From an uncultured virus (IMG/VR IMGVR_UViG_3300035182_002585) (Duplodnaviria; Heunggongvirae; Uroviricota; Caudoviricetes): a stretch of DNA of 64,000 nt. The translations under genes were made by a program, and so were the position numbers. The notes below the pieces were generated by a model. The model did no database searches. It was not told the DNA's origin and saw only the letters and a list, made by a program, of their open reading frames with translations. This document shows, piece by piece, positions 41,593 through 62,288 of this stretch (within the stretch, counting starts at the first letter, position 1; every line of letters starts with the position of its first letter). Location: IMG/VR virus record IMGVR_UViG_3300035182_002585. One strand, given 5' to 3'.

Positions 41593-41596
41593 GCGC

Positions 41597-46088: not shown

Positions 46089-46098
46089 CAGGGCTAGG

Positions 46099-46766: not shown

Positions 46767-46994
46767 ACCTCGGGGGTTCGATAAGGAAACTAACGGCTCG
46801 TTTCTCCGACGAACCCCTTGAAGAACCGCCCATGACCCTAACCCGCAAGACCTACGGCCTCGTCTACCACCCGATACCCATCGGGCAAACAGCGGGCTAC
46901 GAGCCCCTGTTCTCGAAGACGTACAAGCGTCGTATCCTTGCCCCCAAGCTGGGGGACGGGTACGATTCCCACCTCGAAGCTGACCGAGAGAACC

Positions 46995-48332
46995 GTGAAG
47001 TCGAAGGATCGAGCCCGAAAAACGACCCGCGCCGCTGAACGTCAGCAGGCCCGCGTTGACGCTGACCAGCGCAAGCGGGACCGAGCCGAACGAGCGGCGG
47101 CCCGGGAAGCGGAAGCGGCGGCCCGGGAAGCGGCCGTCCGGAGAGCCCTTTGCCGGCCCCCGACCACGGAGGCGACGGTCGTAGCTCGGGCACTATCCCG
47201 GAAAGACCCCGCTGGCGACCCCCTCTTCATGAAGCTGCGAGGGGTAGGAGCCGAGAAGGACCTGCCGAACCTCGCACCCTTGCTCACGACGGTGGCGGAC
47301 AAGGCCCCGCGCATCGTGGACAAGGACTACGGCGGCGCCCTCTACTGGATCGCCACGCTCCCGTGGGTGCGCCCCCTGGAGGCGTGGGAGCCCCGTGGGA
47401 AGGGGCGGGAGACCATCTTCCGGTCCCTGGTCGAGCACCTACTCGCGAAGTTCCGCACCCCGCCGTTCCTGTGGGACGCGTTCTTCGCGGAGAACGCCTC
47501 CACCACCCTAGTCCCTGTCGTTGCCCGTGTGGCGGCCGGCGGAAGCCTCGCGGATGAGGTGAAGAGCGGGGCGCTGCCTGTCCCCCTCACCCGGAAGATG
47601 TGCCACGACCTGCTCCTGACGACGGCCGAGTACCGCATCCTCGAAGCCATCCGTCGTGTCGAGGTCCGCGCCCACAAGGGTGACCCCCGCCTGTTCCGAG
47701 CCTGGATGGGAACGGAAGCGGGGCGCACGCTCCACAGCGCAGAGGACGAGGCGTTCTGGCTCACGGTCCTCGCGTGGTTCAGCGCCAACCCCATGCTGGA
47801 CCCCGAGAAGGTTGCACCTCTCGTGGACTACATCGGCTACCGCCGTCGTCAGGAAGCGGGCTTCTCCATGAAGGGGCGGACCCCGCTTGCGCTCATGCGC
47901 GGCATGGACGAGTGGCACGGAGACCTCGCGAAGGCCAAGGCCATCTCGGGGACCATCTTCCGGCCATCGGGCTTCAAGCCCGGCGAGTTCGATCGCTCCC
48001 GGCGCACGGCCACGGGGAACTTCCAGGCGGAGGTCTGGAAGGTCGAGGAGATCCTCACCTCGAAGGCTCTGGCCGCCGAGGGACGCGCGATGTCGCACTG
48101 CGTATTTTCATATGCATGGTCGATCGAGAAGGGTTCGACCTCCATCTGGTCGATGACCCTCGATGAAGGAATGGGCCCGGAGCGCACCCTGACCATCGAA
48201 GTCCGCAATGATCTCCGGCGGATCGTTCAGGCCCGGGGCAAGTGCAACAAGGCCGCTACCAGCCGAGATCACACGATTCTCGTCGCGTGGGCCGGAATGA
48301 ACAACCTGGAGATTTCCCTCGGTCGCTGGTGA
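46995..48332 (+). CDS. PcfJ-like domain protein
   Basis: L..EG..M.HCV.SY...TIEV...IVQARGKCN. Confidence 0.85.
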   Translation: MKSKDRARKTTRAAERQQARVDADQRKRDRAERAAAREAEAAAREAAVRRALCRPPTTEATVVARALSRKDPAGDPLFMKLRGVGAEKDLPNLAPLLTTVADKAPRIVDKDYGGALYWIATLPWVRPLEAWEPRGKGRETIFRSLVEHLLAKFRTPPFLWDAFFAENASTTLVPVVARVAAGGSLADEVKSGALPVPLTRKMCHDLLLTTAEYRILEAIRRVEVRAHKGDPRLFRAWMGTEAGRTLHSAEDEAFWLTVLAWFSANPMLDPEKVAPLVDYIGYRRRQEAGFSMKGRTPLALMRGMDEWHGDLAKAKAISGTIFRPSGFKPGEFDRSRRTATGNFQAEVWKVEEILTSKALAAEGRAMSHCVFSYAWSIEKGSTSIWSMTLDEGMGPERTLTIEVRNDLRRIVQARGKCNKAATSRDHTILVAWAGMNNLEISLGRW

Positions 48333-48347
48333 GGGTACTCTGCGCGC

Positions 48348-48596
48348 ATGCATGTCTTGAAACCGACGCGTCCAATCCCTCAACACCAAGACGTCTCATG
48401 CGAGTGCGGAGCAGAGCTTCGCATCGAGCTGAAGGACCTCTTCAAGGGAAGCCTCCCCGAGGAGCCCTCGAATGTGCTCGCCCTGTGGGAGTGCCCGGCC
48501 TGCCATCAGCAGTACCCCACGTCTGTGCCTGCGGACGTTCTGGTGACGCTGCCAATGCGGTCGGCACGGGTCAAGCGCGAGCTGTGGCAGGGCTAG
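48348..48596 (+). CDS. Zn-ribbon protein
   Basis: CECG...CPAC. Confidence 0.55.
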   Translation: MHVLKPTRPIPQHQDVSCECGAELRIELKDLFKGSLPEEPSNVLALWECPACHQQYPTSVPADVLVTLPMRSARVKRELWQG

Positions 48597-48865
48597 CGGA
48601 CGACCGCCTTCGCCCTGTCTAGGGCTTCCTCGACCTGATCCGGGTTCTCTTTCAAGAACTTCTGGATGTCCTCGAACATCTTGTGCTGGCGTTCGAGCTT
48701 GGCCCCCGTGTCCAAGATGCCGCGTATCTTGGCCTCGTACTTCTCGCGGCTGAGGGGCTCCTGCTTCTTCTTGCGCTTGCGCTCGACGTACTTCTCGTAG
48801 TCCCCGTCCGTCACGGCGGGGGTGTTCGCGAAGCGGGCAGCGACTCGAAGGGCCAGGGGGTCCAT
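48593..48865 (-). CDS. Small protein with N-terminal ALRVAARF signal
   Basis: MDPLALRVAARF; CTTGTA 13 nt upstream. Confidence 0.7.
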   Translation of the reverse strand: MDPLALRVAARFANTPAVTDGDYEKYVERKRKKKQEPLSREKYEAKIRGILDTGAKLERQHKMFEDIQKFLKENPDQVEEALDRAKAVVR

Positions 48866-48892
48866 GTAGTCAGCCCCCTACAAGTCGATCCC

Positions 48893-49603
48893 TCACTCCT
48901 CGACGGCGAGAAGCCTGTCGATGTAGGTGCGGTCGGCGGAGAAGATGGGGATCTCGTCATCCACGGCCCATTCGTTGCGTGTCGCCCCGTTGCGCTCGAA
49001 CGCCTTCTTGACGACGCAGCGACCCCGCCGAAGGTGCGTAGGCAGGTTGTTCCAGTTGAGCCCCTTCGTGTGCAACAGTTCGTGCATGTCGGGCCCCTTG
49101 AGTCCGTGCACCTCCTTGTGCGAGAAGTGGGCCCGCGTCATCATCGTGAGCGAGTTGCGCGTGGCGTCTTGCTGACGCCACAGGAAGTAGTTGCAGACCT
49201 CAGCCTCAGGTAGGACCCAGACACGCGCATCAAAAAGGACTTCTTGTCCGTACGCACGGGAGACGAGGGACGAGGGGATCGCCGCAGCGACACTGGCGAT
49301 CTTCTGCACCTCACTGTTGAACCAAGTGTCGCTATTGAGCCGCTTGTACCCGTGTACGAGAATAGAGATCTCGTCCGACTGCACGTAGGCGATCTGCGCG
49401 CCGCCGATCTTCTTGCAGAGGGTCACCGCCGCATCGTTCATCACCGAGATGAGGCGGTCGTCGAATGGGCGCTTCATGTGCTTGCAGAACGAGTGGAAGC
49501 ACACACCGTCCACACGGATCAGAAGGGGCATCCTTCTCGGTAGCTCGTACCGGAAAACCTGCTCCGCGCGTTTCATGCGATCCCCGAGGGAGTCTCGTGG
49601 CAT
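48893..49603 (-). CDS. thg1: tRNA(His) guanylyltransferase Thg1-like (3'-5' polymerase)
   Basis: RVDG..FHSF, YVQSDEIS, FDAR, NYFLWRQQDATRNS. Confidence 0.93.
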   Translation of the reverse strand: MPRDSLGDRMKRAEQVFRYELPRRMPLLIRVDGVCFHSFCKHMKRPFDDRLISVMNDAAVTLCKKIGGAQIAYVQSDEISILVHGYKRLNSDTWFNSEVQKIASVAAAIPSSLVSRAYGQEVLFDARVWVLPEAEVCNYFLWRQQDATRNSLTMMTRAHFSHKEVHGLKGPDMHELLHTKGLNWNNLPTHLRRGRCVVKKAFERNGATRNEWAVDDEIPIFSADRTYIDRLLAVEE

Positions 49604-49691
49604 GACGAAGGTATACACCGTCAACACCAGAGGACTTCCCCTTGGAGCTGCGAACGGTCTGTGGTCGGCGGGTGGAAGAGGTGTCGGAGCC

Positions 49692-49919
49692 TCACGCACT
49701 CTTCTTCGTGCGCTTTGTCTTGGTCGTCTTCGGGGTCTTCTTCGTGGCCACTTCGGTCTTCGGGCGACCAAGAGCCTCTTTGATGTCCGCGAGAGAGACC
49801 TCGAACCTGTGCACCACAGGACCCCCACCCCACGGCTTTGGTCCTGCGACGCGCAGATCGTTGAGGTAGAGACTCGGGCCCTCGACACCATTGACCACGT
49901 ACACGTCGACAGTAGACAT
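49692..49919 (-). CDS. Hypothetical protein
   Basis: GVEGPSLYLNDLRVAGPKPWGGG. Confidence 0.65.
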   Translation of the reverse strand: MSTVDVYVVNGVEGPSLYLNDLRVAGPKPWGGGPVVHRFEVSLADIKEALGRPKTEVATKKTPKTTKTKRTKKSA

Positions 49920-49941
49920 CGACCACCGCACCTTCCCGGGG

Positions 49942-50472
49942 TCACCCCCAATAGACGTAGAGCACTTCGGTGAGGCGCTCGAAGACCTCGGGGATGCCGA
50001 GCCAGAGGCAGAACGCCGCGATCACCAGGGGCGGCTTTCCTTTCAGGAACGGCTCGATCTCCCTGTCCAAGGACACCCACCGCTTCTGTTGCCCGTGAAG
50101 CTGCGTCTCCTCGGACCAGTCGATGTCATCGTTGTACCGGCGCCAGTTGGAGATGCGCCACCCCGGAGGGATGAAGACGATGCCGTCCTCGAAGCCGAAC
50201 TCGTCGTCATACTCGACGTAGCGCCCGAGAGACTCCCCGAGCATCTTGTCGTCCGCGAGACACATCAGGTTCACGTCGAGCATCGTGCGTCGGAACTTGT
50301 CGTCCTCGGTGGGAGCGAACGCCAGGATCTCGTCCTTGTGCGCTCGGCACCAGTCCGCGAAGTGTTCGAGGGTGACGTTCTCGTAGGCTTCGTTCAGACG
50401 GTCCCTGAACCCCTCGGGGGCCACGAAACCGCGCGCCCCGAAACCGATCTGCTTGTGGACCCTGATGCCCAT
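49942..50472 (-). CDS. Hypothetical protein
   Basis: ORF, high GC3. Confidence 0.7.
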   Translation of the reverse strand: MGIRVHKQIGFGARGFVAPEGFRDRLNEAYENVTLEHFADWCRAHKDEILAFAPTEDDKFRRTMLDVNLMCLADDKMLGESLGRYVEYDDEFGFEDGIVFIPPGWRISNWRRYNDDIDWSEETQLHGQQKRWVSLDREIEPFLKGKPPLVIAAFCLWLGIPEVFERLTEVLYVYWG

Positions 50473-50478
50473 TGCCCA

Positions 50479-50748
50479 CTACCCCTCATTCCGGTGGTAG
50501 TGGATCGTCGGGCACGCTGCGATCGCAGTCTCGTAGGCGGCGCGCAGGTCGTCAGGGAGAGCCTGCGGTGCGACTGGCGCACCATCCTTCGTCTCGATGT
50601 AGACGCGGGGTTCGCCGAACTTCTCCTTGACCTGCACGACTTCGTACCCCCCGGCCTCCAGCAACGTGACGAGCGGGCGGAGGGTGGGTTCCCACGGGTG
50701 GTCGTCCGGCAGATCCCAGCAGATCATCCCGTCGATGGCGTGCTTCAT
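50479..50748 (-). CDS. Conserved phage protein (QVKEKFG type)
   Basis: VVQVKEKFGEPRVY. Confidence 0.7.
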   Translation of the reverse strand: MKHAIDGMICWDLPDDHPWEPTLRPLVTLLEAGGYEVVQVKEKFGEPRVYIETKDGAPVAPQALPDDLRAAYETAIAACPTIHYHRNEG

Positions 50749-50820
50749 GTGGCCCGCTGTACACCGGGACCCCCTGAATCGAACGTGCCCGAAAACCCCT
50801 ACGAAAAGGCGCCTTTGGGG

Positions 50821-51048
50821 TCACCCCTTGAATGGATCTTCGAGCACGTGGTCGTAGAGCGTTGCAGGTGGCTCCAAGGGGCCCGGGGGTTTCCCCCTCT
50901 TCCCCATCTTGGCCGCAACCTCGTACGTGTTGAAGGCGAACTGGAGAGCCGAGCGAGTCGACGGAGCTAGGCCCGAGTGCGGGCTGAATGCGATCTTCCG
51001 CACGAGCTTGAGCAGCTCGTCGAGCCTGAGCTGTGCGAGCTTCGTCAT
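50821..51048 (-). CDS. Hypothetical protein
   Basis: ORF. Confidence 0.45.
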   Translation of the reverse strand: MTKLAQLRLDELLKLVRKIAFSPHSGLAPSTRSALQFAFNTYEVAAKMGKRGKPPGPLEPPATLYDHVLEDPFKG

Positions 51049-51213
51049 CAGGGTGCACAGACGATCGTGCTGAGAACCGGATCGTAGACGTGCTGGCACT
51101 CCGTGTCAGGAGTCACACCCGCCACCAGCAAGGCCACCGCGAGCAACACCGACGCCACGACGGCGAAGCGCAGTGCGCGGTGGTGAGGATCCTTGCGGGT
51201 CGAGGGCGTGGGG

Positions 51214-51855
51214 CTACCGCGTCCGGATGTTCTTCATCCGCGGGATCCGGTCCAGCGTCGCGACCAGCTCTTCGTTCGCGATCAGCGTGGCCTCGTCGAG
51301 GTTCTTGGCCGTCGCGAGGTAGCGCGGGTGCTTGAGCCACTCGGCGTAGGGCAGGTTGCCCCGGACCTTGTTGCACTTCTTGCACGCGCTCAGGAGGTTG
51401 GCCTCGATGCTCGGGCCCCCCTCCTCCCACGTGACGAGGTGGTCGATCGTCAGCGGCACGTTGTCGTTGGCGCAGTAGCGGCACTTGTAGCCGTCGCGCT
51501 TGAAGCACTTCCACGAGATGGTCGCCTCGATCTGGCGCTCGCACTTGCGCTTGATGACCTTGGCGATCGTGCCGTCCGACGCCTTCGTGAGGACCTCGGC
51601 CTCCATCATGTCCGTCTGACGGATGAACCGCTCCCAATCACCGGAGTCCATGTCGAGGGTGTGGACCTCGTGCTCCTCGTCGCTGCCGTGCGGCGCGAAC
51701 GTGACCGGGATCGGGCGGTCGCTGCCGATCACCCCCCGGTCCTCGGGGAAGAGGCAGAGGAGGAGCTGGCCATCACCCGCGTAGACGGCACCGACCATCT
51801 GGATCGTGTGGCCAACGGAGAGGAGGTTGAAGTCGGAGAGCTTCTTCGTGGACAT
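51214..51855 (-). CDS. HNH endonuclease
   Basis: RDGYKCRYC...TIDHL...GG...NL..ACKKCN. Confidence 0.88.
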   Translation of the reverse strand: MSTKKLSDFNLLSVGHTIQMVGAVYAGDGQLLLCLFPEDRGVIGSDRPIPVTFAPHGSDEEHEVHTLDMDSGDWERFIRQTDMMEAEVLTKASDGTIAKVIKRKCERQIEATISWKCFKRDGYKCRYCANDNVPLTIDHLVTWEEGGPSIEANLLSACKKCNKVRGNLPYAEWLKHPRYLATAKNLDEATLIANEELVATLDRIPRMKNIRTR

Positions 51856-51864
51856 GACCCCTCA

Positions 51865-51876
51865 TACACCGGTGTA
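51865..51876. promoter_or_regulatory. Back-to-back class B motifs forming the palindrome TACACCGGTGTA
   Basis: Serves divergent starts at 51855 (9 nt) and 51887 (10 nt). Confidence 0.8.
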
Positions 51877-51886
51877 CGGCGAGTCC

Positions 51887-52246
51887 ATGCGGACGTTCTT
51901 CATCTCCGGGCACTTGGATGTGACCGACGCGGAGTTCGAGACCCATTACAAGCCGCGGATCCAAGCGGCTGCGGAGGCGGGGGGTGCGTTCGTGGTTGGG
52001 GACGCCCGCGGAACGGACCACAAGGCACAGGTCTTCCTGCGCGTTCTTAACCACGAGCACGTGCGGGTCTTCCACATGTTCGAGGAGGCGCGTCACCACG
52101 AGGGCTACCCCACGATCGGGGGCTTCACCTCCGACGATACCCGCGACGCGGCGATGACGGCTGCGTCAGACGAAGACATCGCGTGGGTGCGCTCCGGCAG
52201 GGAGAAGAGCGGGACCGCCAAGAACCTCCAACGACGGAAGCGTTAG
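51887..52246 (+). CDS. SLOG-superfamily (Rossmannoid) protein
   Basis: FISGH...FVVGDARGTD...RDAAM...SGT. Confidence 0.7.
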   Translation: MRTFFISGHLDVTDAEFETHYKPRIQAAAEAGGAFVVGDARGTDHKAQVFLRVLNHEHVRVFHMFEEARHHEGYPTIGGFTSDDTRDAAMTAASDEDIAWVRSGREKSGTAKNLQRRKR

Positions 52247-52869
52247 GCTGCCCTCGGCGTTGTCTCTAGCTGCCGACGTACAAAGCGCGCCCACCGCGTC
52301 ACGACACGAATCTCACGGCTTGCGCCCTCAACGTAGGGGAGGAGCCTCTCAGCAATCTCCAGGCGGCCCACAAGAGCCGACCCACTCAGTCCCTCCACGG
52401 TCTCCGACGCCGCTCCCCGAACACGAACCCCGTGCCGGAGTGCCCCGAGCACGGCCGCTGCGAGGGCCGTTCGTCCACGGTCCGACTGTAGGGCGTGGTC
52501 GATCAGTTGCGTGCGCGTCATCGGCGGAGCGGCTGCCTGTGGTTGGGGCCGTGTCGTCACCCGCTGCCAGACTTGACGGTTGGCGAGCTGGAGGAGCGCG
52601 GGCTCGTCCGCCTCCAAGTAGAGCTTCTGGGCGAGCATCGTATCCGCGTCGGGGACATCTTCGACCGGGTGCACACACAGGCTCTCGACGATCTCCGTGC
52701 CGACGAGCACGTCGATGTTGCCGAACCGGCCTCGATGGATGCGGTACGTCCGGTCTGCACGAAGCACATCGAACCACCCGTGGGTGTCGAGGGTGTCCTG
52801 CTGTTCTTCCGTCAGATGCTCACGGAGAAGGCGTTCGGCCTTCACCCGGGCTGCGATCGGGTCCGGCAT
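52243..52869 (-). CDS. Conserved phage protein fused to a capsid-N-terminus-like helix
   Basis: LCVHP...DTMLAQKL.LE.DE; LIDHALQSDRGRTALA. Confidence 0.6.
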   Translation of the reverse strand: MPDPIAARVKAERLLREHLTEEQQDTLDTHGWFDVLRADRTYRIHRGRFGNIDVLVGTEIVESLCVHPVEDVPDADTMLAQKLYLEADEPALLQLANRQVWQRVTTRPQPQAAAPPMTRTQLIDHALQSDRGRTALAAAVLGALRHGVRVRGAASETVEGLSGSALVGRLEIAERLLPYVEGASREIRVVTRWARFVRRQLETTPRAA

Positions 52870-52872
52870 GGT

Positions 52873-53436
52873 CTACCCCGCCTCCGCGAACTTGAGGGAC
52901 TTTCCCGCAGTGGCGGCCACGCTGCTCTTGAGGCACTTCGCCCCGTCGACCCCCAATAGGACGGTCACGTACGAGTGGAACCGGATCTCTTTCGGTAGGT
53001 CCTGGGATATCGTGCAGAGCAGTACGGTCCCCTTCCCCACGCGCATCAATCGGGTCAAGTAGGCGCAGAACAGGAGGTCGACCTGCGGGGCGCTGATCAC
53101 GAGCAGGTCCCCGCTCTTGACCTCCGCTTCTCTTCTATGCCTCAACGCGGTGCTGATCAGGCCCCACTTGGCCACCCCATCCGGGGGGTCGATCGGCTCC
53201 GGCAAGAGCAGTCGCGTCCAGCCGTCGAGTTCGTCTTCGACCTTCGCGTAGCTGTCCTGGTAGTTCAGAAGACGGGTACAGCGCCATGGGGCTCGGCGCG
53301 CAGTGTCCGTGAGGGACAGGTGCAGGCTGTCCCATGCTGCGCGACTGTCGAACATGAAGAGGTTGAGCCTGCCCTTGGCCAGCCCACCGCCCATGAGGTC
53401 ATCGAGCCACGGAGTGTTGGTGGGAGCGAAGGGCAC
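52873..53436 (-). CDS. Degenerate RecA/DnaB-fold protein (no intact Walker A)
   Basis: TNTPWLDDLMGGGLAKGRLNL. Confidence 0.6.
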   Translation of the reverse strand: MPFAPTNTPWLDDLMGGGLAKGRLNLFMFDSRAAWDSLHLSLTDTARRAPWRCTRLLNYQDSYAKVEDELDGWTRLLLPEPIDPPDGVAKWGLISTALRHRREAEVKSGDLLVISAPQVDLLFCAYLTRLMRVGKGTVLLCTISQDLPKEIRFHSYVTVLLGVDGAKCLKSSVAATAGKSLKFAEAG

Positions 53437-53444
53437 GGCTTGTC

Positions 53445-54659
53445 CTACACCGCTTCGTCGAGTTGCCTCAGGCGCTCCAGGGCCACGCGGTTGATGTCCT
53501 TCACGGGGAGACCCAGCTTGTCCCCCCGCACGACCTCGATCCCGGCCTCCTTGAGCCATTGCGACAGCCTCTCCTTGCCGAGCCCAAGGCGCTTCGCGGC
53601 TGTACGGATCGGCTCCCTCCCACACTTGTCCGCTTTCTTGCGGGCAACGACGCGATCGATGACCTCACGGGGTACGCCCGAACGCCCGAACGTCACCCCG
53701 GCGGCCTTGAGCCAAATGGAGAGCGTCACGTACTTGATCCCGTGACGCTTCGCTGCGTCCTGAAGGTACTCCAGCTTCGTCTTCTTCGTCTCGTGTCGAC
53801 GAAGGGCCCGCTCGATGTCCTCGGTCAGGATGCGCCACACCGGACGCTTCACCTTCGGGGGGTCGACCCCTAGCTCCTTGAGGAGGTCTCGAAGCTGCCC
53901 CTGCACCATCTGCGAGGGTAGACGGATACGGACCTTCCCCCGGTTGACCTTGAGCCCGGTGGCCTCCACTGCGTCCTGGATCGCTGCTGCCACCTTGGGC
54001 GTGAGGTCTTCCATCAGCACTTCCCAGAAGGTCTGGCTGTTCGGTGGTTCGACTCCATCCGCTACGAGTATCTTTCGCAGGGTGTCCGGGAGCAGCCCCC
54101 GCTTGCAGGCCGCGTAGTACAGGGTCTCTGTTGCGAGCCGGTGCTCGACGGCGGCGTCGACTTCCATGGTCCTGACGATGAGGTGTCGGAGCCACTTCCC
54201 CTTCGTTCGGAGCTGCTTCGCGGTCAGGTCCCGGTACGAATACGAGGGCAGGATCTCGACGTCCGCTTCGGCGAGGATCTTCTTGAGAGTCCCGATGTCG
54301 TACCCCACACGCTTGGCTGCGTGCCCGAGGTGCTCGAACCCTGGCGGACACCCGCCGGCAAGGCTAAGGTGGTTGATCGCACGAAGGTAGACGCTACGTT
54401 GTGGGCGCCCGAGCTTCCGGCTGATGTCCTCCATGGGCTCTTCACCCCACAGACGACGGACCAGCTTGTCTTCGTCAGCGGTCCAGGCTCGGAACTTCCG
54501 AAGCCCTAGTTGATCGGCACGTCGGTAGAGGGCGACTCGGGGCAGCGTGGGGAACGTGGCAAAGGCCGCCTTGACCCCTCCACGGGCGTACGCCGCACGG
54601 AGCTGCGCGTCCTTCTCCTCGTCCCATACGTGAGCAGGATCCTTGGCGTTTCGACGCAT
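53445..54659 (-). CDS. Multi-HTH DNA-binding protein (Myb-like plus repeated HTH)
   Basis: WDEEKD and WTADED repeats; several AAKR.G HTH units. Confidence 0.75.
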   Translation of the reverse strand: MRRNAKDPAHVWDEEKDAQLRAAYARGGVKAAFATFPTLPRVALYRRADQLGLRKFRAWTADEDKLVRRLWGEEPMEDISRKLGRPQRSVYLRAINHLSLAGGCPPGFEHLGHAAKRVGYDIGTLKKILAEADVEILPSYSYRDLTAKQLRTKGKWLRHLIVRTMEVDAAVEHRLATETLYYAACKRGLLPDTLRKILVADGVEPPNSQTFWEVLMEDLTPKVAAAIQDAVEATGLKVNRGKVRIRLPSQMVQGQLRDLLKELGVDPPKVKRPVWRILTEDIERALRRHETKKTKLEYLQDAAKRHGIKYVTLSIWLKAAGVTFGRSGVPREVIDRVVARKKADKCGREPIRTAAKRLGLGKERLSQWLKEAGIEVVRGDKLGLPVKDINRVALERLRQLDEAV

Positions 54660-54889
54660 CGGGGTGTCGGTACACCAGGAACGTCAGCCTTCGCGGGAGG
54701 CTTTCTCTGCCGCGACCCCGGCCTCCGTGAGACGCCAGATCGGGCCCCGCTCGGGGTACGTGTGCATCAACCCCTCGTCCATGACGATGAGTCCGTCTGC
54801 GAGGAGCTGGTGCACCAGGGCCTTGGACAGGTCGGCGGAGGAAGCGTAGCCCCGCCTCAGTCGTTGGAGCGCGCGAGCTACACGAGGTG

Positions 54890-55267
54890 TCACGTGCCCT
54901 CGTGGTTGCACCCGAGACACGCTGGACCGCACGTCTGGCGCATCACTCGGCAGTAGAGCGCGTGCTTCTCGGGGTCGGTGTCCACGTCTGTAATCGCCCC
55001 GTCGAGGAGTTGCGAGAGGTAGGTCTTGACCTGCTCGATCCCGTCGTGCTCGGTGTCGACGAAGACCCCCTCGTCGGTCTGCACGATCGCGAACTCCCCG
55101 AAGCCCCGCCCTTTCTCAGAGAAGCTGAAGACGAGGACGATCTTCTTCGGGAGGGGCGCGCCGGAGGCGTCGTACTCGTCCTTCTCCTCCATCCTCGCGT
55201 AACGCAGAGAGACGACCGAAGGCAGGGCGTTCAAGAACGGAGTGATGTCCGGCTTCGGCTTGCTCAT
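54890..55267 (-). CDS. Hypothetical protein
   Basis: GRGFGEF; GGTGTA upstream. Confidence 0.65.
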   Translation of the reverse strand: MSKPKPDITPFLNALPSVVSLRYARMEEKDEYDASGAPLPKKIVLVFSFSEKGRGFGEFAIVQTDEGVFVDTEHDGIEQVKTYLSQLLDGAITDVDTDPEKHALYCRVMRQTCGPACLGCNHEGT

Positions 55268-55286
55268 GGTCCCTCTGTTCCTACAC

Positions 55287-55508
55287 CTAGAAGGGCGTTA
55301 CGTCATCTCGCAGCCGCTCCCACAGAGACAGCGGGGCCAGCTCCAACTCCTCGAAGCCGAAACCCCCGTCCCACGTGTACCCGTCGAGCCGCACAAGGCA
55401 CCCCCCGCTCGTGGGCACCACGGCGACGACCTTCCCGTACTCCCCACGGGCCAACGTTCCAACGGCCCTCACGTAGTCTCCGGGAGCGATGGTTGCGGGA
55501 TTGACCAT
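55287..55508 (-). CDS. KOW/SH3-like small protein
   Basis: PGDYVR...GKVV; GGTGTA 9 nt upstream. Confidence 0.6.
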   Translation of the reverse strand: MVNPATIAPGDYVRAVGTLARGEYGKVVAVVPTSGGCLVRLDGYTWDGGFGFEELELAPLSLWERLRDDVTPF

Positions 55509-55623
55509 GCTCTTGGGTACACCGCCTGACTAAATGGCCCTGGTTAACCCGTGGGTCAGGCGGCCGGTTATACGCAGGTCTGGGCTCGTCGACGTATAAC
55601 GACCCCTGCGTTACGATAGGGGC

Positions 55624-56037
55624 ATGTCCGGGCCCAAGGTACTCCAGTCCCCTCGCGAGATGCTCAAAGGCTACCCCGGGGAAACGACCACGCTCCGAAC
55701 CATGGCCGCCGACGTGGTGACCGAGCCCGAGTACTTCGAGTACCCCGGCGTCACTGCCTGCCTCCCGGGTGACGAGCCCCATCTGCTAGCGGAGACGGCT
55801 CGCAACCCGTTCCCGCCCGGCGTGAGCGTCATGGCGATCGCCCGTGCCCTACGTGAGGGGTGGATCAAGGATCCCGGCCTGGCGAAGCGAGCGCGAGCCT
55901 ACGTGGACGCCTACCAAAAGCAGCTCGGCCAGCCGTTCTACGACGGCCGGATGCAGAACGTGCTTCCCGATGGGATCGGAGTGAACGAGCACCAGAGGGT
56001 GACGCGCGGAGACCCCTGGCCGTTCGACGATCAGTAG
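55624..56037 (+). CDS. Hypothetical protein
   Basis: ORF with an inverted-repeat-rich upstream region. Confidence 0.6.
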   Translation: MSGPKVLQSPREMLKGYPGETTTLRTMAADVVTEPEYFEYPGVTACLPGDEPHLLAETARNPFPPGVSVMAIARALREGWIKDPGLAKRARAYVDAYQKQLGQPFYDGRMQNVLPDGIGVNEHQRVTRGDPWPFDDQ

Positions 56038-56246
56038 CCCCACAGGTGCCAGCCGTTGCGGCACTTGGTCCGTAGCGACTGCTTCTGCGGCAAGTCGTCG
56101 TAGCTCCCCTTTCGGAGGCACTGGCGGTTGCCCCGCCGAGCCTCACGCGCAGAGAGCTGCTTCGCCCACTTGAGGGAGTGGTTCAGGTGGTAGTGGCGGA
56201 CCTTGGACCAGCCCTGCTGGTCCTTGCGACGGTGGTTGCGGTGCAT
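56031..56246 (-). CDS. Small basic protein preceded by a leader peptide
   Basis: GAAAGGA RBS; Arg/Lys-rich; upstream ORF at 56273-56314. Confidence 0.65.
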   Translation of the reverse strand: MHRNHRRKDQQGWSKVRHYHLNHSLKWAKQLSAREARRGNRQCLRKGSYDDLPQKQSLRTKCRNGWHLWGY

Positions 56247-56335
56247 GTCTGTCCTTTCATTCCCGAGGGAATTCAGAACAGAGGCGCGTCCGCCTTTCCT
56301 TTGGTCGCGTCCATGAGGGGGTACTGTACTCTAGA

Positions 56336-56578
56336 TCACGGGGTGTCGCACTCCGTGACTCCGAACTCCTGCACCACGGCGTCGATCGCCTTCTGATAGG
56401 CATCCACCCGGGCGACGGCCGCACCGAGAAGATACTGACTCTCCTCGTGTACGGAGTGAATCTGGATTGTAGCCCGCGCCGAGTCCCGGTAGCCCTTGAG
56501 GACCCCCAAGAGCTTCTTTGGGTCTGGCTTGAGCGGCTGACCTCTGGTGGGCTCGATCTCCTTGTCGCTCCAGGCCAT
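56336..56578 (-). CDS. Hypothetical protein
   Basis: GAGGAG RBS. Confidence 0.55.
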   Translation of the reverse strand: MAWSDKEIEPTRGQPLKPDPKKLLGVLKGYRDSARATIQIHSVHEESQYLLGAAVARVDAYQKAIDAVVQEFGVTECDTP

Positions 56579-56589
56579 GTTCAGGCTCC

Positions 56590-56724
56590 TCAGGGAAGGA
56601 TTCTTGTCCCACGCACTGTATCCCCACGGTAATCAGCGGCAGCGAGGGCTCGGAAGGCGGCCTTGATGACCGGCGCGGACGCCCGAGGGTTGATCTCCAG
56701 ATCGTCGTAGAGAGAAGCCGTCAT
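56590..56724 (-). pseudogene. Truncated J-domain (DnaJ helices I-II, no HPD)
   Basis: MTASLYDDLEINPRASAPVIKAAFRALA; GGTGTA 9 nt upstream. Confidence 0.7.
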
Positions 56725-56747
56725 GGTCTCTTGTACACCGGCAACGG

Positions 56748-57227
56748 CTACTCCTGGGGGAGGAGCGCCTTCAAGATCGGCGTGGGGTCGAGGATGTTCG
56801 AGGGGTAGGGAGTGTCGCGCTCTTGCAGCTCACAGCAGTTGCGCGTCCCGTGCGTGTACAGCTCCAGGTGGAGCATGGACAGAGGACGGCCCTTGTCGTG
56901 TCGAAGGACACGCTTCACGTGGCCGATGATGCCCCCCTCGGCCACGCGGTCCCCCACGAACACGAACTCCATGACCTCCCCGTAGAGGAAGACGCCCGAG
57001 GCGCCCTCGACGAGAACCGCACGGGTCGGGAGCCACCAATTGCAGCCGGCTTGAGGGCCGGTGAAGTCGACGATGGCGACGACCTCACCGGCCTCGATAG
57101 CGGTCACAGGGTGGCCCACCGGAGCATAGAGGTCGACCCCGAGGTGGACATCGTGCTTGCGCACAGCACCAAAGCAGCCGTGAGAGGGAGGAAGGGACGC
57201 GTAGAGGTTGGGCAGCGGCCAGCGCAT
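56748..57227 (-). CDS. M23 metallopeptidase
   Basis: HLGVDL...V.A...G.V; MLHLE. Confidence 0.88.
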   Translation of the reverse strand: MRWPLPNLYASLPPSHGCFGAVRKHDVHLGVDLYAPVGHPVTAIEAGEVVAIVDFTGPQAGCNWWLPTRAVLVEGASGVFLYGEVMEFVFVGDRVAEGGIIGHVKRVLRHDKGRPLSMLHLELYTHGTRNCCELQERDTPYPSNILDPTPILKALLPQE

Positions 57228-57242
57228 GGTTTGACGGTAGGG

Positions 57243-57695
57243 CTACACCGACTGCGCTTTCAAGCGGAGCCGCTCGTAGCTCTTCCGCCTGGACTCGTTC
57301 GAGCTGTAGCAGCTCTCGCAGAGAGGGGTAGGCTCCGCGTCGACCGCATTCATCCCGCGAACGATGGTGGCCTCTTTCGTCGCCACGTTCGTGCAGGCGA
57401 AGTGCCGGCACGCGAGCACCGTCGGCACGGCCTCCAAGGCCGCAAGCCTCGCCTTGGCGCTGAGGATGGAATCCACGCACTCCTGCCTCATCTCGTCGCG
57501 CACGCGGTCCGGCAGCACCGTGACCTCTTCCCACCCGTAGCCGTAGGAGTCCCTCGTCTCGCCCGTGCACGTGTGGCGTGCCCACTCGCGGGCCATCTCC
57601 TTGAGTTCTTCCTCGTCGGCACGATACGAATCATGGACGAGGAGGTACTTGACCTCCTCGCCGGCACCACCACGGACCCAGAGCTTAACCCACAT
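57243..57695 (-). CDS. Hypothetical protein with C-terminal Zn finger
   Basis: Class A motif; ORF ends GTG TAG. Confidence 0.6.
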   Translation of the reverse strand: MWVKLWVRGGAGEEVKYLLVHDSYRADEEELKEMAREWARHTCTGETRDSYGYGWEEVTVLPDRVRDEMRQECVDSILSAKARLAALEAVPTVLACRHFACTNVATKEATIVRGMNAVDAEPTPLCESCYSSNESRRKSYERLRLKAQSV

Positions 57696-57747
57696 GATCT
57701 CATCTACACCGTGGGGCCGGAGTCGATCCATCGGTGTAGAACGGGGC

Positions 57748-58290
57748 ATGGCGAACTACAGCCACATCCACCTGGCGGAGCCCACGACCCCCGAGGAGCT
57801 GGAGGAGCGCCTCAAGGAAGCGGTCCTGATGTGGTTCAACGGGCGGGCGCAAGTCATCACCGCTCCGTGGGAGCACCAGAACCCCACCTGGTTGGTCTAC
57901 ATCCCCGGAACGGCGCAGAGTGACGAGAAGAAGGCTCTGCACAGCATGCTCGCGCCGGGAGAGGACGTGGGCTTCCCCGTGGAGCTGGAGGGCGAGGGAC
58001 GCACGATCGCCTTACGTCACTCGCCCAACATGTGCGAGACCTGGATGCGAGGTTGCATCGAAGAGATGCTCTCGGAGGTCTACGGGGTGGGCGTCTTCTA
58101 CGACGCCACTGACAGGCTGGCCCCACCGGGCTCGCGTGAGTACCGAAGGGGCCGCCGCCTGTTCGACTACCTGTCGCGCAACTTCAAGCGGCCCCTGACG
58201 AAAGAGGACATCGCCTATCTGTCGCGCTACCGGACGGGGTGCCCGGCGGGGTTCTGGGGAGGGCCCGGCGGCGAGCCCACCCCCGGATGA
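57748..58290 (+). CDS. Hypothetical protein
   Basis: GGTGTA at 57733-57738. Confidence 0.7.
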   Translation: MANYSHIHLAEPTTPEELEERLKEAVLMWFNGRAQVITAPWEHQNPTWLVYIPGTAQSDEKKALHSMLAPGEDVGFPVELEGEGRTIALRHSPNMCETWMRGCIEEMLSEVYGVGVFYDATDRLAPPGSREYRRGRRLFDYLSRNFKRPLTKEDIAYLSRYRTGCPAGFWGGPGGEPTPG

Positions 58291-58319
58291 GAGCCCTTAG
58301 AGCACCGTCTCTTAGCGGC

Positions 58320-58438
58320 GTGTGTACCAGGGGAATCCCCGGAAGGGTCATCGGAAACCCTGGCGCCATGTTCGAGAGACCGCCGAAGACCTCGTTGGTC
58401 TTCTGGAAGACAGCGCACTCGGCCGGGTCGTACTTCAT
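58320..58438 (-). pseudogene. NADAR (YbiA-like) N-terminal fragment
   Basis: F.KTNE.FGGLSNMAPGFP, then an abrupt change before the expected SEA.YQA segment. Confidence 0.65.
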
Positions 58439-58447
58439 GGGGGCCGT

Positions 58448-59122
58448 CTACACCGCGCCCTGGTTGACGTACGCGCGCAGGGCCGGGAGGACCTTGTGGT
58501 TCTTCCACTGGTTGAACATCGCGTAGCCCTTGGCCGTCGAGAACTTCGCGCTGATTCCCGGCAACATGCGGAACGCATCCACGTCCGCGATCCCGTCGGC
58601 CGCGAGCTTGAAGTAGGCGGGCAGGTCGGGGTGGATGTCGGTGAGGAAGGCCGTCACGCGGTCGATCTGATCGGCCGTCATCGGCGCATCGAGGTTCGCG
58701 CTCGGATCCTCGACCTTGACCGCCTCGACGCTCTGCTTCGCGTGGTATTTGGCTCGACGCGAGGTCTTCTGCTTCGCGTTCTCCATGTGGAAGCGCAGCG
58801 CCGTCATCACGAAGTACGTCGCCGACTGGAGGTTGTGCCCGCCCTTGATGTTGGGCTCCGTGAGGAACGAGAGCTGGAAGTCGCTCAGCGTGTCCCGAGC
58901 CACTTCGAGGCTCAGACCCCCCGCCTGGAGCATCTTCATCGCTTGCGCTCCGAACACGTCGCCGTAGCCCTTCGGGAGCTTGCTAGTGAGGCGAGGGCTC
59001 GACGTATCGAACTCGGTGGCCGGGACCCCGTTGATGTCCGGCATGCCCGTGATGCCCGCGCGGAGGAACTCCACGTAGACGATGAGGCCGAAAACCGATG
59101 CGATGGGGTCGATGTTGTTCAT
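58448..59122 (-). CDS. Putative divergent sigma-70/ECF-like factor
   Basis: EVARDTLSDFQLSFL...YFVMTALRFHMENAKQKTSRR (region 2-like); LTDIHPDLPAYFKLAADG (region 4-like). Confidence 0.45.
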   Translation of the reverse strand: MNNIDPIASVFGLIVYVEFLRAGITGMPDINGVPATEFDTSSPRLTSKLPKGYGDVFGAQAMKMLQAGGLSLEVARDTLSDFQLSFLTEPNIKGGHNLQSATYFVMTALRFHMENAKQKTSRRAKYHAKQSVEAVKVEDPSANLDAPMTADQIDRVTAFLTDIHPDLPAYFKLAADGIADVDAFRMLPGISAKFSTAKGYAMFNQWKNHKVLPALRAYVNQGAV

Positions 59123-59166
59123 GTCCCCACTACAATGCGGAGTAGGGGGCGATCCATCGGCGAAGC

Positions 59167-59922
59167 TCAGAACGTGTCGACGGACTCGTCCACCAGGCTC
59201 GCGAAGATGCGCTCGTAGAGGTTCGGCACGTCCTGACGCACCAGGTCGTAGAACCGCCCCTCACAGTCGGACGAGCAGACGACCGCGAAGCCCTCCCTCT
59301 CGTCCACAACGTAGCGGACGGTTTTCCAGGGGGAATCCTTGAACCGCTCCGGCAGCTTCTCCCCCACCTCGTGCGTGTAGAGGCTGCCGTGCCGCTTGAA
59401 GCAGACGATGCAGAACTCTTTCTCCGGCATCACGGGCGGCGTACGGGCGGCGATCTCCACCCGGATGCGCAGCAACTCCTCGCGGAAGTAGGCGCAGTCC
59501 GAGCAGTAGTCGTTCGCCCGGACCCCATGACTGCACGGGCCATAGTGCTCCGGGTTCAGGTTGCGGGGCGCGTCCGGGGGCCCGTAGTCCTTGCCGTTGG
59601 GCGCCGGGTCGAGCACGAAGGGCTTTTTGGCCCGGCTGTTGGGGCTCCACCCCGCCTTGAGAGCGGCCTCGATGGCGTTGCGTACGTCCTTCGGAGAGAA
59701 GGCCGCCTGGTGGGTGCGGGCGTTCTCCGGGTCGCGCTCGTGCTCGTCCAGCCAGTTCTTCGAGAAGAACTGCGTCGTGAGCATCGCCCCACTCGGGGAG
59801 AGCACAACGAGGTTCACGCTCTTGGGGCTCCACCCCTGGTATCTGTGGGGGGAGTGCCACCGCGCCTTCCACTGGTAGGCGATGTCTTCGACCGTGATGT
59901 TGCGAGCACCGCTGAGGGCCAT
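59167..59922 (-). CDS. Hypothetical protein, probably two domains
   Basis: R.I.V....YQW...P.DV..AI..AL..GW.P; C-terminal Cys motifs. Confidence 0.65.
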   Translation of the reverse strand: MALSGARNITVEDIAYQWKARWHSPHRYQGWSPKSVNLVVLSPSGAMLTTQFFSKNWLDEHERDPENARTHQAAFSPKDVRNAIEAALKAGWSPNSRAKKPFVLDPAPNGKDYGPPDAPRNLNPEHYGPCSHGVRANDYCSDCAYFREELLRIRVEIAARTPPVMPEKEFCIVCFKRHGSLYTHEVGEKLPERFKDSPWKTVRYVVDEREGFAVVCSSDCEGRFYDLVRQDVPNLYERIFASLVDESVDTF

Positions 59923-59960
59923 ACAGAGGGATACACCGCCCGCTGGTGTACTAGCGCCAC

Positions 59961-60160
59961 ATGGCTTGGGAATCCGGCCTCGTCGAGAGGCTCAAGAAGG
60001 GCGAGACCGTGCAGTTTCGACCGCACGGGAACTCCATGGTGCCGATCATCAAGAGCGGCCAGCTCGTGACCGTGGCCCCCCTTCAAGTCTTCGGCGACGA
60101 GGCGGGCCGAGAGGTCGACGGCGTGCAGAGATGCGTCCAGAAGGGAGACGCAGTGTTCTG
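59961..60160 (+). pseudogene. S24/S26 peptidase-like protein, C-terminally truncated
   Basis: GNSMVPIIKSG...KGDAVF, then runs into the antisense DUF262 end. Confidence 0.6.
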
Positions 60161-60899
60161 GATGGCGCGGCGGAGAGCATCTTCCACCTCGTCCGCGCCC
60201 ATGCGAGTCCCCGCCGTGTTCAGCCGGCGGAACATGTTCATCACGTTCGCGAGCGACCATTGGTAGGGCAGCCCGACCGTCGCGACGACGCGGTAGATGA
60301 GGTCATCCGCCAGACGGCCGGCGTGGTCCGCCCCGTCGGAAGCCTCGATCCAGCGCAGGATGTCCATGTCTTCGTCGGACCTCATCGTCGGACCTCATCG
60401 TCGGACCGTAGACGAGGTGCAGCGGGAGGACCGTCTTGCTCAGGGGCACGTCGACGACGAACTTGCCCGCAGCGAAGTCGTAGGCGAAGCGCTTCGAGGT
60501 GAAGGCTTGGTGCAGGCTGACGAGACGCTGCTGACCATCGATGACGAGGAAGCCTCGCTTCTTGTTCGCGTCGGAGAGGGGGACGCCCCCCACGGTCTTG
60601 ACCTCGGGGAGGATGTCGTAGCTCTCCCACAGAAGCAGCGAGCCCACGTAGTAGCCGCACCACAGCGAATCGAGCAGATGCAGGACTTGCCCGTCGGTCC
60701 ACAACGTGCCCGCGCCGATCTGCTCCACGAGCTGCCGCACGGTCCCCGCCGCCCCCTCCTACCGAGGAGGAGCTGGCTCGACTGCCCGAGCACAGCGGGT
60801 CTCGTCGCCAAGTGCCGGGCGAGGCGCTCGTCGTCGTACTGCTTGTCCCGCGCCATTCGAGGGCGGCGGCTTCTTCGAACGCACGGAACTACGACCCAT
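60083..60899 (-). pseudogene. DUF262 (GmrS/ParB-like) pseudogene with multiple frameshifts
   Basis: LLDSL..GY.VGSLLLW, VIDGQQRL, F.RLN..G; 13-bp duplication at 60373-60398. Confidence 0.8.
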
Positions 60900-60932
60900 G
60901 TTCCCTCTACACGGCGGCGACGGGCCGATCCA

Positions 60933-62288
60933 TCACAGCCTCGGGAACTTGTCCAACGCGGTCGGCCCGTGCGACTTGATGACCACCGGGACCCCGAGGC
61001 GCTCCGCTACCTTGGTGTCCATGTTGGTCGAGGGGGTCTGCCACATAATGGGCTTGGCCGTGAACAGGGCCTTCGTGATACGCTCCTGCCGGTCGAGGTC
61101 GACCTTGGGGTCATGGCGGATGCGAGTCGCCCGGTTCAGCTCCCCATCGAAGAGGTTCGGGTCGATGTTGTCATCCAGACGGTAGCCCGTGCAGACGTTC
61201 AGGTCCCCTGCCACGTGGGACAGGCGGTCGAGGCAGGTCAGCGCAAGGCCGTCGACGGGCCCGAGCACATCGAGGGCGTACCGCGCGGCCACGAGGTCGA
61301 GGGCGCCGCTCCGGAAGTTCTGCTGCCACTCCCCGAAGGTGTTGTGGTCGTGCGAGGAACACGCGCCGTAGTGGCGCTCGTCCTCAGTGACGAACGGACC
61401 GGCTCCGTGGCGGGTCGCGTAGGCCCGTAGGACGGCGAGCTTGGTGACCTCCACCGGCTCCGCCTGGAGGGCCTCCAGGGCGTTCTTGAAGGTCGTGTGA
61501 GCCCACGTGGTGTGGGGGTGGAACCCGTAGTCCTCGTCGAGGAGCACGCCTTGGGAGCCCTCTCCAATGATGGTGGCGCCGGCTTCCGTAGCCGTGTGGA
61601 GAACGAGCCCGTCGGGGTCGATGTGGATGCGGGTAGCACACTGGACGAAGCGCTCCACGCAGTCTTCGACGGAGCTTTCGCTCTCCAGGATGTCCCGTTC
61701 CCGCTCGAACGTGGACGACGGAGAGGTGACCTTGAGAAGGGCCCGCATGGCGGACGTGGCCAAGAGCATCCGCTCCCGGACAGCTTCGAGCTTCTCCCTC
61801 AGGGTGCGACGCACGAGGAGGTCCGACGCACGGAGGGCCAGGTCCGGATAGCTCAGCGCGTCCTGGACGGTCTCGCCGATCCCCATACCGCAGCTCCCGT
61901 GACGGTTCTGGCCACGAGCCAGCTCCCGAAGTCGGTTGGCCGCGATGTGGAAGGGCGTGGTGAGAAGAGCGCTTTCTTCGACGTTGATCAGCGAGAGGGG
62001 GTTGTTGACCCCGAGAGTGTGCAGGTGCCTCGCCTCGCTGACCAGCGAGATGGGGTTGAAGAGCATGTGCCGGGTGAGCAACGTCCGCGCTCCGGCCAGC
62101 GTCCCGCTCCCGAACTGAGAGAACGTGTGGTGTTTACCATCAGGCGTTACGACCGAGTGTGCAGCCTGTGCGCCCCCACTGAACCGGAAGACGAGCTTCG
62201 CGTCATATTTTCGCGTCAAAAAATCGGTGGTGGAACCTTTACCCTCATCACCGTACCCCAGACCAACGACGATTAGTGCACGTCCCAT
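60933..62288 (-). CDS. purA: Adenylosuccinate synthetase, divergent PurA-type
   Basis: GYGDEGKG, RFSGG, HGSCGMGIGE, EGSQG.LLD, TRHGAGPF. Confidence 0.88.
   Translation of the reverse strand: MGRALIVVGLGYGDEGKGSTTDFLTRKYDAKLVFRFSGGAQAAHSVVTPDGKHHTFSQFGSGTLAGARTLLTRHMLFNPISLVSEARHLHTLGVNNPLSLINVEESALLTTPFHIAANRLRELARGQNRHGSCGMGIGETVQDALSYPDLALRASDLLVRRTLREKLEAVRERMLLATSAMRALLKVTSPSSTFERERDILESESSVEDCVERFVQCATRIHIDPDGLVLHTATEAGATIIGEGSQGVLLDEDYGFHPHTTWAHTTFKNALEALQAEPVEVTKLAVLRAYATRHGAGPFVTEDERHYGACSSHDHNTFGEWQQNFRSGALDLVAARYALDVLGPVDGLALTCLDRLSHVAGDLNVCTGYRLDDNIDPNLFDGELNRATRIRHDPKVDLDRQERITKALFTAKPIMWQTPSTNMDTKVAERLGVPVVIKSHGPTALDKFPRL

What the first reader, a model, noticed from the sequence alone, without database searches (positions are those of the whole stretch)
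58448..59158. Candidate phage sigma factor that may drive the promoter cascade
Seen: 224-aa protein under a class A motif, with segments resembling sigma region 2 (EVARDTLSDFQLSFL...FVMTALRFHMENAKQKTSRR) and region 4 (LTDIHPDLPAYFKLAADG). Inference: it may recognise class B or C motifs. A degenerate region 4 would fit -10-only promoters, as with T4 gp55.
Basis: inference. Interest (0 to 1): 0.7.

Follow-up and report, generated by a model that had tools for sequence, protein, structure and literature searches.

The report
Leaderless early phage sigma-factor copy
This gene of an uncultured giant phage encodes a very divergent ECF-type sigma factor (the part of RNA polymerase that picks promoters), predicted to bind the host polymerase and likely reading the two-box promoter that sits in front of its own gene, while a sister copy with a leader peptide may travel in the virus particle.

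Summary
The ORF is real and belongs to an unannotated family of ECF-like sigma factors. The family profile hits SigH/SigR at E 1e-6, 27 of 69 members hit TIGR02937 (112), and the model shows sigma2 then sigma4. The predicted complex with the beta' clamp scores 0.80 against 0.00 for controls. Region 4 is not degenerate in the model.

The gene lies under GATGGATC-N16/17-GTA-N8-ATG (14 sites in the window, 0.03 expected). Related jumbo phages share an invariant YGGTGTA box and each carries its own variant of this two-box promoter. A second ECF-like gene, (b), has a near-invariant -10-reading segment and fits YGGTGTA. This family is variable there and fits the variable two-box class (99, 128). So it more likely reads its own class A than classes B or C (about 55%).

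Relatives carry one copy with a leader under a late-type motif. This phage seems to hold both that copy and this leaderless early duplicate. No RNAP subunits were found. Promoter assignment and virion delivery are inferred, not shown.

The parts
58448..59122 (-). ECF-like sigma factor gene, 224 aa, leaderless copy (a1)
58739..59083 (-). sigma2-like helical domain (residues 14-128), with a ~30-residue family-specific insertion after the first helix
   Evidence: SigW Z 5.8, rmsd 3.8, 85 aligned; SigK Z 5.7; sigmaE region 2 Z 5.2
58859..58909 (-). region 2.2 helix (residues 72-88), predicted to pack on the beta' clamp helices
   Evidence: D77, S80, D81, L84 touch beta' 275, 278, 282, 295; D or E at 77 in 60 of 69
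58769..58831 (-). region 2.3-2.4 helix (residues 98-118), the putative -10 reader
58454..58681 (-). sigma4-like helix-turn-helix domain (residues 148-223)
   Evidence: SigH Z 5.0, rmsd 3.2, 66 aligned; SigD4 Z 4.9
59131..59158 (-). class A two-box promoter-like site GATGGATC-N17-GTA, 8 nt before the ATG
59932..59938 (-). class B box CGGTGTA before the upstream gene (59167..59922); read-through into the sigma gene is possible, no terminator-like site found between
58449..58455 (-). class B box CGGTGTA overlapping the sigma gene's stop codon, 10 nt before the next ATG
1244..60934 (.). the other 13 class A sites of the window: + 40064, 40645; - 60934, 57732, 33427, 27751, 27367, 23810, 23501, 20161, 17017, 9251, 1271 (5' ends)

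Best explanation
The protein is a divergent ECF-type sigma factor that is predicted to dock on the host RNA polymerase clamp and likely directs it to the phage's two-box promoters GATGGATC-N16/17-GTA, including the one in front of its own gene. Shown: the gene, the family's homology to ECF sigmas, the promoter-like motifs and their spacing, and the absence of detectable RNAP catalytic subunits in the records searched. Predicted: sigma2 binds the beta' clamp helices. Inferred: sigma4 reads GATGGATC, sigma2 melts at GTA, and transcripts start at or next to the ATG (leaderless). Inferred further: the gene is an early-expressed duplicate that amplifies class A transcription by positive feedback. 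Its sister copy (P0002) keeps a ~35-residue leader and a late-type motif, and may be the copy that starts the cycle. Class A would also turn on the second sigma (b), which likely reads YGGTGTA.
For: Homology: 12 of 13 PDB matches to the 69-member profile are sigma factors, best E 1.3e-6; 27 of 69 members hit TIGR02937 at E<=0.01, best 3.2e-10. Fold: pLDDT 92; sigma2 then sigma4 in order, 11 of the top 16 rows are sigma entries. Binding: score 0.80, best of 3 controls 0.00 (mark reached by 116 of 157 solved and 2 of 215 mismatched pairs); runs agree in >=93% of contacts, partner pLDDT >=82. No PF00562 or PF00623 match in G000, G001, G002; sigma70-type promoters not enriched. Promoter match: 12 of 12 records tabulated have YGGTGTA before starts, and each has its own spacing-specific two-box class. 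The ATG is modally 8 nt after the -10 triplet in 11 of 13 records. That places G-T-A at -11/-10/-9, as in the AATGTA box of phiEco32 gp36 (PMC12276001, introduction). Region 2.3-2.4 identity over 12 records is 0.27 in this family (57% of its windows score as high) and 0.61 in (b) (top 1%); sigma4.2 is 0.28 and 0.24. The two copies are sisters (100/98) and share a changed sigma4 helix in the one lineage with the GATGGATC box.
Against: No experiment and no RNA data. Structural Z-scores are all below 6, and Foldseek found nothing at E<=0.001. The complex pass resembles many solved sigma-clamp structures, so it shows likeness, not binding, and E. coli beta' is a stand-in for an unknown host. The GTA versus GTT/GTC split in class A follows one clade split seen in both this family and (b), so it does not separate the two. 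(b) itself sits under class A in 5 of 17 records within the 50 nt shown, which also fits autoregulation by (b). Low conservation of regions 2.2, 2.4 and 4.2 could mean relaxed function. This copy has lost family-typical E102, N111 and R118. No class A motif was found in 136 kb of G019, 54 kb of G004 or 28 kb of G003. The class A patterns were drawn from the same sequences in which they were counted.
Confidence: 0.55

Rival explanations
1. The family is the late sigma that reads the class C motif CTYTTRTY, which stands before its own canonical gene (autoregulation); this class A-driven copy would switch late genes on. This is.
For: 16 of 18 records have the class C motif before the canonical gene (G012/G014 and G008/G009 are near-duplicates). 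ECF genes are often autoregulated (recalled). I found no other sigma2-bearing candidate for class C in G001 or G002.
Against: Class C is conserved across records while region 2.3-2.4 of this family is not. Class C ends 13-17 nt before the ATG, unlike the gp36-like register. Loss of the leader in the class A copy is unexplained.
Confidence: 0.13
2. The roles are swapped: this family reads the -10-only YGGTGTA box and (b) reads class A.
For: (b) is under class A in 5 of 17 records. One residue of its region 2.4 (H/R versus I) splits with GTA versus GTT/GTC. Some (b) proteins have an E..R pair in sigma4.2 like sigma70 (recalled pattern).
Against: YGGTGTA is invariant in 12 of 12 records while this family's -10-reading helix has only 0.27 identity. 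The clade split is a single event.
Confidence: 0.12
3. It is a sigma-fold protein that binds core RNAP but has little promoter specificity: a decoy or host shut-off factor, or a decaying duplicate.
For: The most conserved part tested is the N-terminal extension, not the DNA-reading helices. This copy has lost several family-typical residues and the family's sigma4 loop is shortened.
Against: The ORF is intact with GC3 0.92. It keeps the aromatic wedge residue F104 and N115 and a consensus class A site. The family is a single-copy gene in all 4 records >=90% complete.
Confidence: 0.15
4. It is not related to sigma factors; the resemblance is a common helical arrangement.
For: No direct family hit; Foldseek blank; Z below 6.
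Against: Profile E 1e-6 to SigH/SigR, 27 of 69 TIGR02937 hits, two domains in sigma order, clamp interface on the region 2.2 helix (135).
Confidence: 0.03

Closest known systems
ECF (group 4) sigma factors: SigH, SigR, SigL, SigW, SigK, sigmaE
   Same: sigma2 + linker + sigma4 layout, region 2.2 helix predicted on the beta' clamp, two-box promoter with a GT[A/T/C] -10 core
   Different: About 30 extra residues after the first helix; an insertion in the sigma4 turn; below all curated cut-offs for this protein; phage core gene; no anti-sigma looked for; canonical copies carry a ~35-aa leader
phiEco32 gp36 (PMC12276001; abstract, introduction, start of methods and passages read)
   Same: Phage sigma on host core; reads AATGTA centred at -11.5, the same GTA register as class A here; chain 9m7y_F appears weakly in both fold searches (E 1.3; Z 4.6)
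   Different: gp36 serves middle and late genes after sigma70-driven early genes and works with gp79; only a -10 consensus is described in what I read; no sequence match to the family profile
T4 gp55 (recalled; chain 7d7d_F at Z 4.5)
   Same: Phage sigma2 on host core
   Different: gp55 lacks sigma4 and needs gp33 and the clamp (recalled); this protein has a modelled sigma4 and sits under a two-box motif
SPO1 gp28 / gp33-34 sigma cascade (recalled, no call)
   Same: Successive phage sigmas, each gene under the previous promoter class
   Different: SPO1 starts with host sigmaA; here sigma70-type promoters are not enriched
Sigma factors of RNAP-less jumbo phages (PMC7824862, PMC13282480; passages read)
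   Same: No own RNAP; phage sigmas proposed to recruit host core
   Different: Those passages describe RpoD-like or HTH-only sigmas, not a tandem pair of ECF-like sigmas with a genome-specific two-box promoter

Membership tests
sigma70 family, ECF-type | sigma2 domain by sequence | tested here: met
   family profile to SigR sigma2 E 7.9e-6 and SigH E 1.3e-6 (24); 27 of 69 members hit TIGR02937 (112); 12 of 69 hit PF04542 at E<=0.1 (22); the query alone hits none
sigma70 family, ECF-type | sigma2 fold | tested here: inconclusive
   best Z 5.8, rmsd 3.8, 85 aligned; sigma entries lead the list but Z is under the tool's bar for helical bundles; Foldseek blank
sigma70 family, ECF-type | sigma4 helix-turn-helix after sigma2 | tested here: met
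   residues 148-223 align to four sigma4 domains at Z 4.2-5.0 (57); the SigH profile match runs through region 4.1 (24); PF08281 in 3 of 69 and PF04545 in 2 of 69 (22); support is modest
sigma70 family, ECF-type | no region 1.1 and no full sigma3 | tested here: met
   224 aa; a 17-residue low-confidence linker joins the two domains
sigma70 family, ECF-type | binds the beta' clamp helices | tested here: inconclusive
   prediction passes, 0.80 versus 0.00 (135), but may be from likeness to solved complexes; no experiment
sigma70 family, ECF-type | promoter-specific initiation and melting | not testable with these tools
   only comparative inference
T4 gp55-type late sigma | sigma2 only, no sigma4 | tested here: not met
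   modelled sigma4 domain, pLDDT 88-97 over residues 151-220 (29, 57)
T4 gp55-type late sigma | gene expressed before late genes and reading a -10-only late box | not testable with these tools
   no expression data
virion-packaged internal proteins with a targeting leader (T4 CTS type; concerns the sister copy) | N-terminal leader shared with other late cargo genes | tested here: inconclusive
   52 of 69 members have >=30 residues before the core and 44 of 69 match a loose R-[VILMF]-A-x-x-aromatic/aliphatic pattern, with no control run; RVAAR-type leader genes often sit under class C; this copy has no leader
virion-packaged internal proteins with a targeting leader (T4 CTS type; concerns the sister copy) | present and processed in virions | not testable with these tools
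   phage uncultured

The most novel reading that the evidence does not exclude
These 400-600 kb phages carry no RNA polymerase yet bypass the host's sigma from the first minute. They pack a leader-bearing ECF-like sigma into the head, inject it, and let it drive a private two-box early promoter that co-evolves with it and differs from phage to phage. This phage split the job between two genes: a late, leadered copy for delivery and this early, leaderless copy for amplification. The family would be a natural library of orthogonal sigma-promoter pairs.
Probability: 0.3. Interest if true: 0.85.

Novelty: new variant of a known kind. Interest (0 to 1): 0.55.

Why it matters
Phage sigma factors are known, but this is an unannotated core family of a large uncultured jumbo-phage group. 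It comes with defined candidate promoters, so the claim can be tested by in vitro transcription. About a dozen natural sigma and promoter variants (GATGGATC, CTTGAA, TAGAGT, TTGATC, GTATAG, GGAAAA and others) allow a cross-matrix test of specificity. If the leadered copy is injected, early transcription by a virion-borne sigma on host core would be a third strategy beside host-sigma promoters and virion RNA polymerases. I found no description in six literature searches.

Tried and rejected
Direct family scans of the protein were blank. The word-index homolog search gave only itself and 4 hits with the profile. The single-sequence fold was useless (pLDDT 41). Foldseek against PDB and BFVD gave no match at E<=0.001. 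The ESM Atlas gave only weak Sigma70_r2 look-alikes (TM 0.35-0.42). No match among 50,697 GenBank phage records. The one genome-contig hit is a 34-residue fragment and was ignored. No RNA holder was listed. The collection scan for class A (44) was dominated by single chance matches and not used.

The apparent CTTGAA-N17-GTA class in G001 (12 versus 1.4) was rejected: the sites do not precede genes. The TAGGAA dyad there is a repeat array. Hairpins around class A sites are no stronger than shuffled halves. CTATYKG is not enriched. Class C is not enriched in the window itself (8 versus 7.5) and only before starts in G001 (15 versus 4.0).

The tandem-sigma4 gene (c) was rejected as the class A reader because its helices are 92-94% identical across records. 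It is not directly under class B, so a closed loop B to (c) to C is unsupported and the class C reader stays unknown. Profile comparison of this family with (b) is weak (probability 8.5%), and the two-sequence (b) profile finds no sigma in the PDB. (b) as a sigma rests on weak hits. The host was not determined.

Full report
Observation. The ORF 58448..59122 (-) encodes 224 aa with GC3 0.92. Its protein record lies on a contig of 620,031 nt, and the window is a dense run of mostly unknown phage-type genes. There is no earlier in-frame start, and the upstream in-frame stretch shows no leader. The motif before it is GATGGATC-N17-GTA-N8-ATG: 14 sites in the window against 0.03 in 100 shuffles. Of the 17 exact GATGGATC words in the 76 kb held, 14 have GTA at this spacing. 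I call this class A. YGGTGTA (class B) occurs 53 times against 6.8, and 40 times before a start against 1.0. CTYTTRTY (class C) is defined from relatives.

Is it a sigma factor? Alone it hits nothing in Pfam, PHROGs or NCBIfam. A full HMMER search found 69 proteins including itself. Their profile matches 13 PDB sequences at E<=10, of which 12 are sigma factors: SigH E 1.3e-6, SigR sigma2 7.9e-6. 27 of 69 members hit TIGR02937 at E<=0.01 and 12 of 69 hit PF04542 at E<=0.1. The alignment-based model has pLDDT 92. Foldseek found nothing significant. The wide structural alignment placed residues 14-128 on ECF sigma2 (SigW Z 5.8, rmsd 3.8, 85 aligned) and 148-223 on sigma4 (SigH Z 5.0, rmsd 3.2, 66 aligned); 11 of the top 16 rows are sigma entries, but all Z are under 6. 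Folding residues 1-135 with E. coli beta' 1-345 scored 0.80 against 0.00 for the best of 3 controls; 116 of 157 solved and 2 of 215 mismatched pairs reach that mark, the runs agree in at least 93% of contacts and partner pLDDT is at least 82. The contacts join D77, S80, D81 and L84 to beta' 275, 278, 282 and 295, the known sigma region 2.2 site (recalled). Many such complexes are solved, so this shows likeness. I put sigma homology at about 95% and a working sigma on host core at about 80%. Region 4 is present, so the gp55 analogy fails on that feature.

Genomic setting. The nearest relative, P0002 (44% identical), is encoded in record G001 and is sister to this protein (100/98). Its contig has the same length as the window's. 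G001 has 66 class A sites, shares almost no DNA with G000, and only 11 G000 frames have a match in it. G000 and G001 are therefore probably complementary parts of one genome, and I do not count G001 as independent. Using a conserved tandem-sigma4 gene (c) as bait gave 45 loci. Of the 25 larger records searched, 16 hold the family, including 4 of 4 that are at least 90% complete, each as one gene. In 15 of 18 records a second ECF-like gene (b) was found, always directly upstream of it, as in G002; in G001 the two are 240 kb apart. Evidence that (b) is a sigma is weaker. No RNAP beta or beta' domain was found in G000, G001 or G002, with controls ringing in 14 of 14 genomes. Sigma70-type promoters are not enriched (1 vs 0.8; 8 vs 8.3; 36 vs 48.6).

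Promoter classes in relatives. I sampled 28-160 kb from 12 further records and all of G001 and G002. YGGTGTA before starts is enriched in all 12 records tabulated. Each of these also has one spacing-specific two-box class: ATGGATC..GTA (G000, G001), CTTGAA..GTA (G002), TAGAGT..GTA (G006), TTAGRT..GTA (G009), TTGATT..GTA (G011), TTGATC..GTA (G012), TTGAAC..GTA (G017), TTGAA..GTT (G010), GTATAG..GTT (G015), TTGAWT..GTT (G016), GGAAAA..GTY (G018). The patterns come from the same data, so the off-spacing controls test spacing only. None was found in the samples of G003, G004 and G019. GATGGATC-type sites number at most 4 in any of the 25 records. The ATG lies modally 8 nt after the triplet in 11 of 13 records. 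If the ATG is +1, GTA falls at -11 to -9, the register of the AATGTA box read by phiEco32 gp36 (PMC12276001, introduction). A sigma70 reading of the same TA would put the start inside the ATG (inference).

Which sigma reads which class? Two sigma2-bearing genes face two GT-type classes. Over 12 records the two families are equally diverged overall (0.29 and 0.33). Region 2.3-2.4 is 0.61 identical in (b), its top 1% of windows, but 0.27 in this family; sigma4.2 is 0.24 and 0.28. An invariant -10 reader with a free sigma4 fits invariant, -10-only class B. A variable reader fits variable class A. The helices of (c) are 92-94% identical, which excludes it for class A. The two copies here share a shortened, changed sigma4 helix in the only lineage with GATGGATC. 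Against this: the GTA/GTT split follows one clade split visible in both families; (b) is itself under class A in 5 of 17 records in the 50 nt shown; and low conservation may mean lax function. I give class A 0.55, class C 0.13, class B 0.12 and decoy or decay 0.15.

The leader. Canonical copies carry about 35 extra N-terminal residues (52 of 69 have at least 30; some short ones are mis-called starts). They sit 13-17 nt behind class C in most records; 16 of 18 match, two with uncertain starts. Class C also precedes an endolysin and many genes that begin with an RVAAR-type peptide, which suggests late genes and possibly head cargo, by analogy with the T4 capsid targeting sequence (recalled; PMC3012670 seen only in a search listing). 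Class B precedes a primase, a helicase, dCTP deaminase and methylases (39 of 82 longer class B proteins scanned). 15 of 19 class A proteins had no PHROG hit, though one is a helicase. This order is soft. The window's copy has lost the leader and moved under class A, as an early amplifier would. It can also be reached by read-through from a class B site at 59938. Packaging of the sister copy is not shown; I rate it near even.

Known and new. It works like an ECF sigma and like gp36, and passes the sequence and domain-order tests for the sigma70 family; function is untested. Reviews note that RNAP-less jumbo phages encode sigmas (PMC13282480, PMC7824862, PMC7162821; passages read). PMC12619734 (passages) describes another lineage, whose relation to this one I did not test. 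Six searches gave no account of this family, of these motifs, or of a virion-borne sigma on host core; no supplements were read and subscription papers are not covered. Earlier AI notes of this scan report leadered sigmas in other phages; they are unchecked and add no support. Verdict: a real, divergent ECF-like phage sigma, a new variant of a known kind, interest 0.55.

Noticed in passing
G001:C1 about 501,200-501,900 (L170:1219-1860): CRISPR-like array: 9 copies of a 36-nt repeat at 71-76 nt spacing, next to a 796-aa gene with a transposase-family hit (L170:1849-4236 -) that could be a type V effector.
   Followed up: partly
G001:C1 93,299-94,477 (+) and G002:C1 105,371-106,354 (-): Second ECF-like gene (b), with a 100-200 aa insertion inside sigma2 (Cys-rich in one clade); a truncated paralogue at G001 491,832 (+) lies under a class A site.
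   Followed up: partly
G001:C1 71,530-72,171 (-); L190-L234: Highly conserved tandem-sigma4 protein with no sigma2 match, 55-66% identical across 44 other loci; role unknown.
   Followed up: partly
G001:C1 479,458-479,694 (+): RpoD-type sigma4 stretch above the TIGR02937 cut-off in a frame with no obvious start; possibly a broken or split gene.
   Followed up: no
window 43827 (+), 48865 (-), 3980 (-): Genes starting with an RVAAR-type peptide, two of them behind a CTCTT-type motif; many more in G001 and G002.
   Followed up: partly
window 58184-58438 (-): 84-aa ORF right after the sigma gene whose first 30 residues recall the start of NADAR/YbiA proteins (recalled; no Pfam hit); possibly a remnant.
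   Followed up: no
window 57705-57738, 16990-17024, 51865-51876 and others: Back-to-back promoter boxes on opposite strands overlap (class A with class B, or two class B boxes forming TACACC..GGTGTA).
   Followed up: no
window 12382-66500: Metabolic and other genes: RNA ligase 12382, DNA methylase 17031, tyrosine recombinase 22632 (under class A), CinA/nucleotidyltransferase 25558, HD protein 26669, M16 peptidase 28364, class I W/Y tRNA synthetase 30800, PcfJ 46938, M23 peptidase 56748, adenylosuccinate synthetase 60933, NUDIX 63197, DndB-like 4191.
   Followed up: no
G019 (L250): The most divergent family member keeps a canonical ECF helix-turn-helix without the insertion, and no class A motif was found in 136 kb of its record.
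   Followed up: partly
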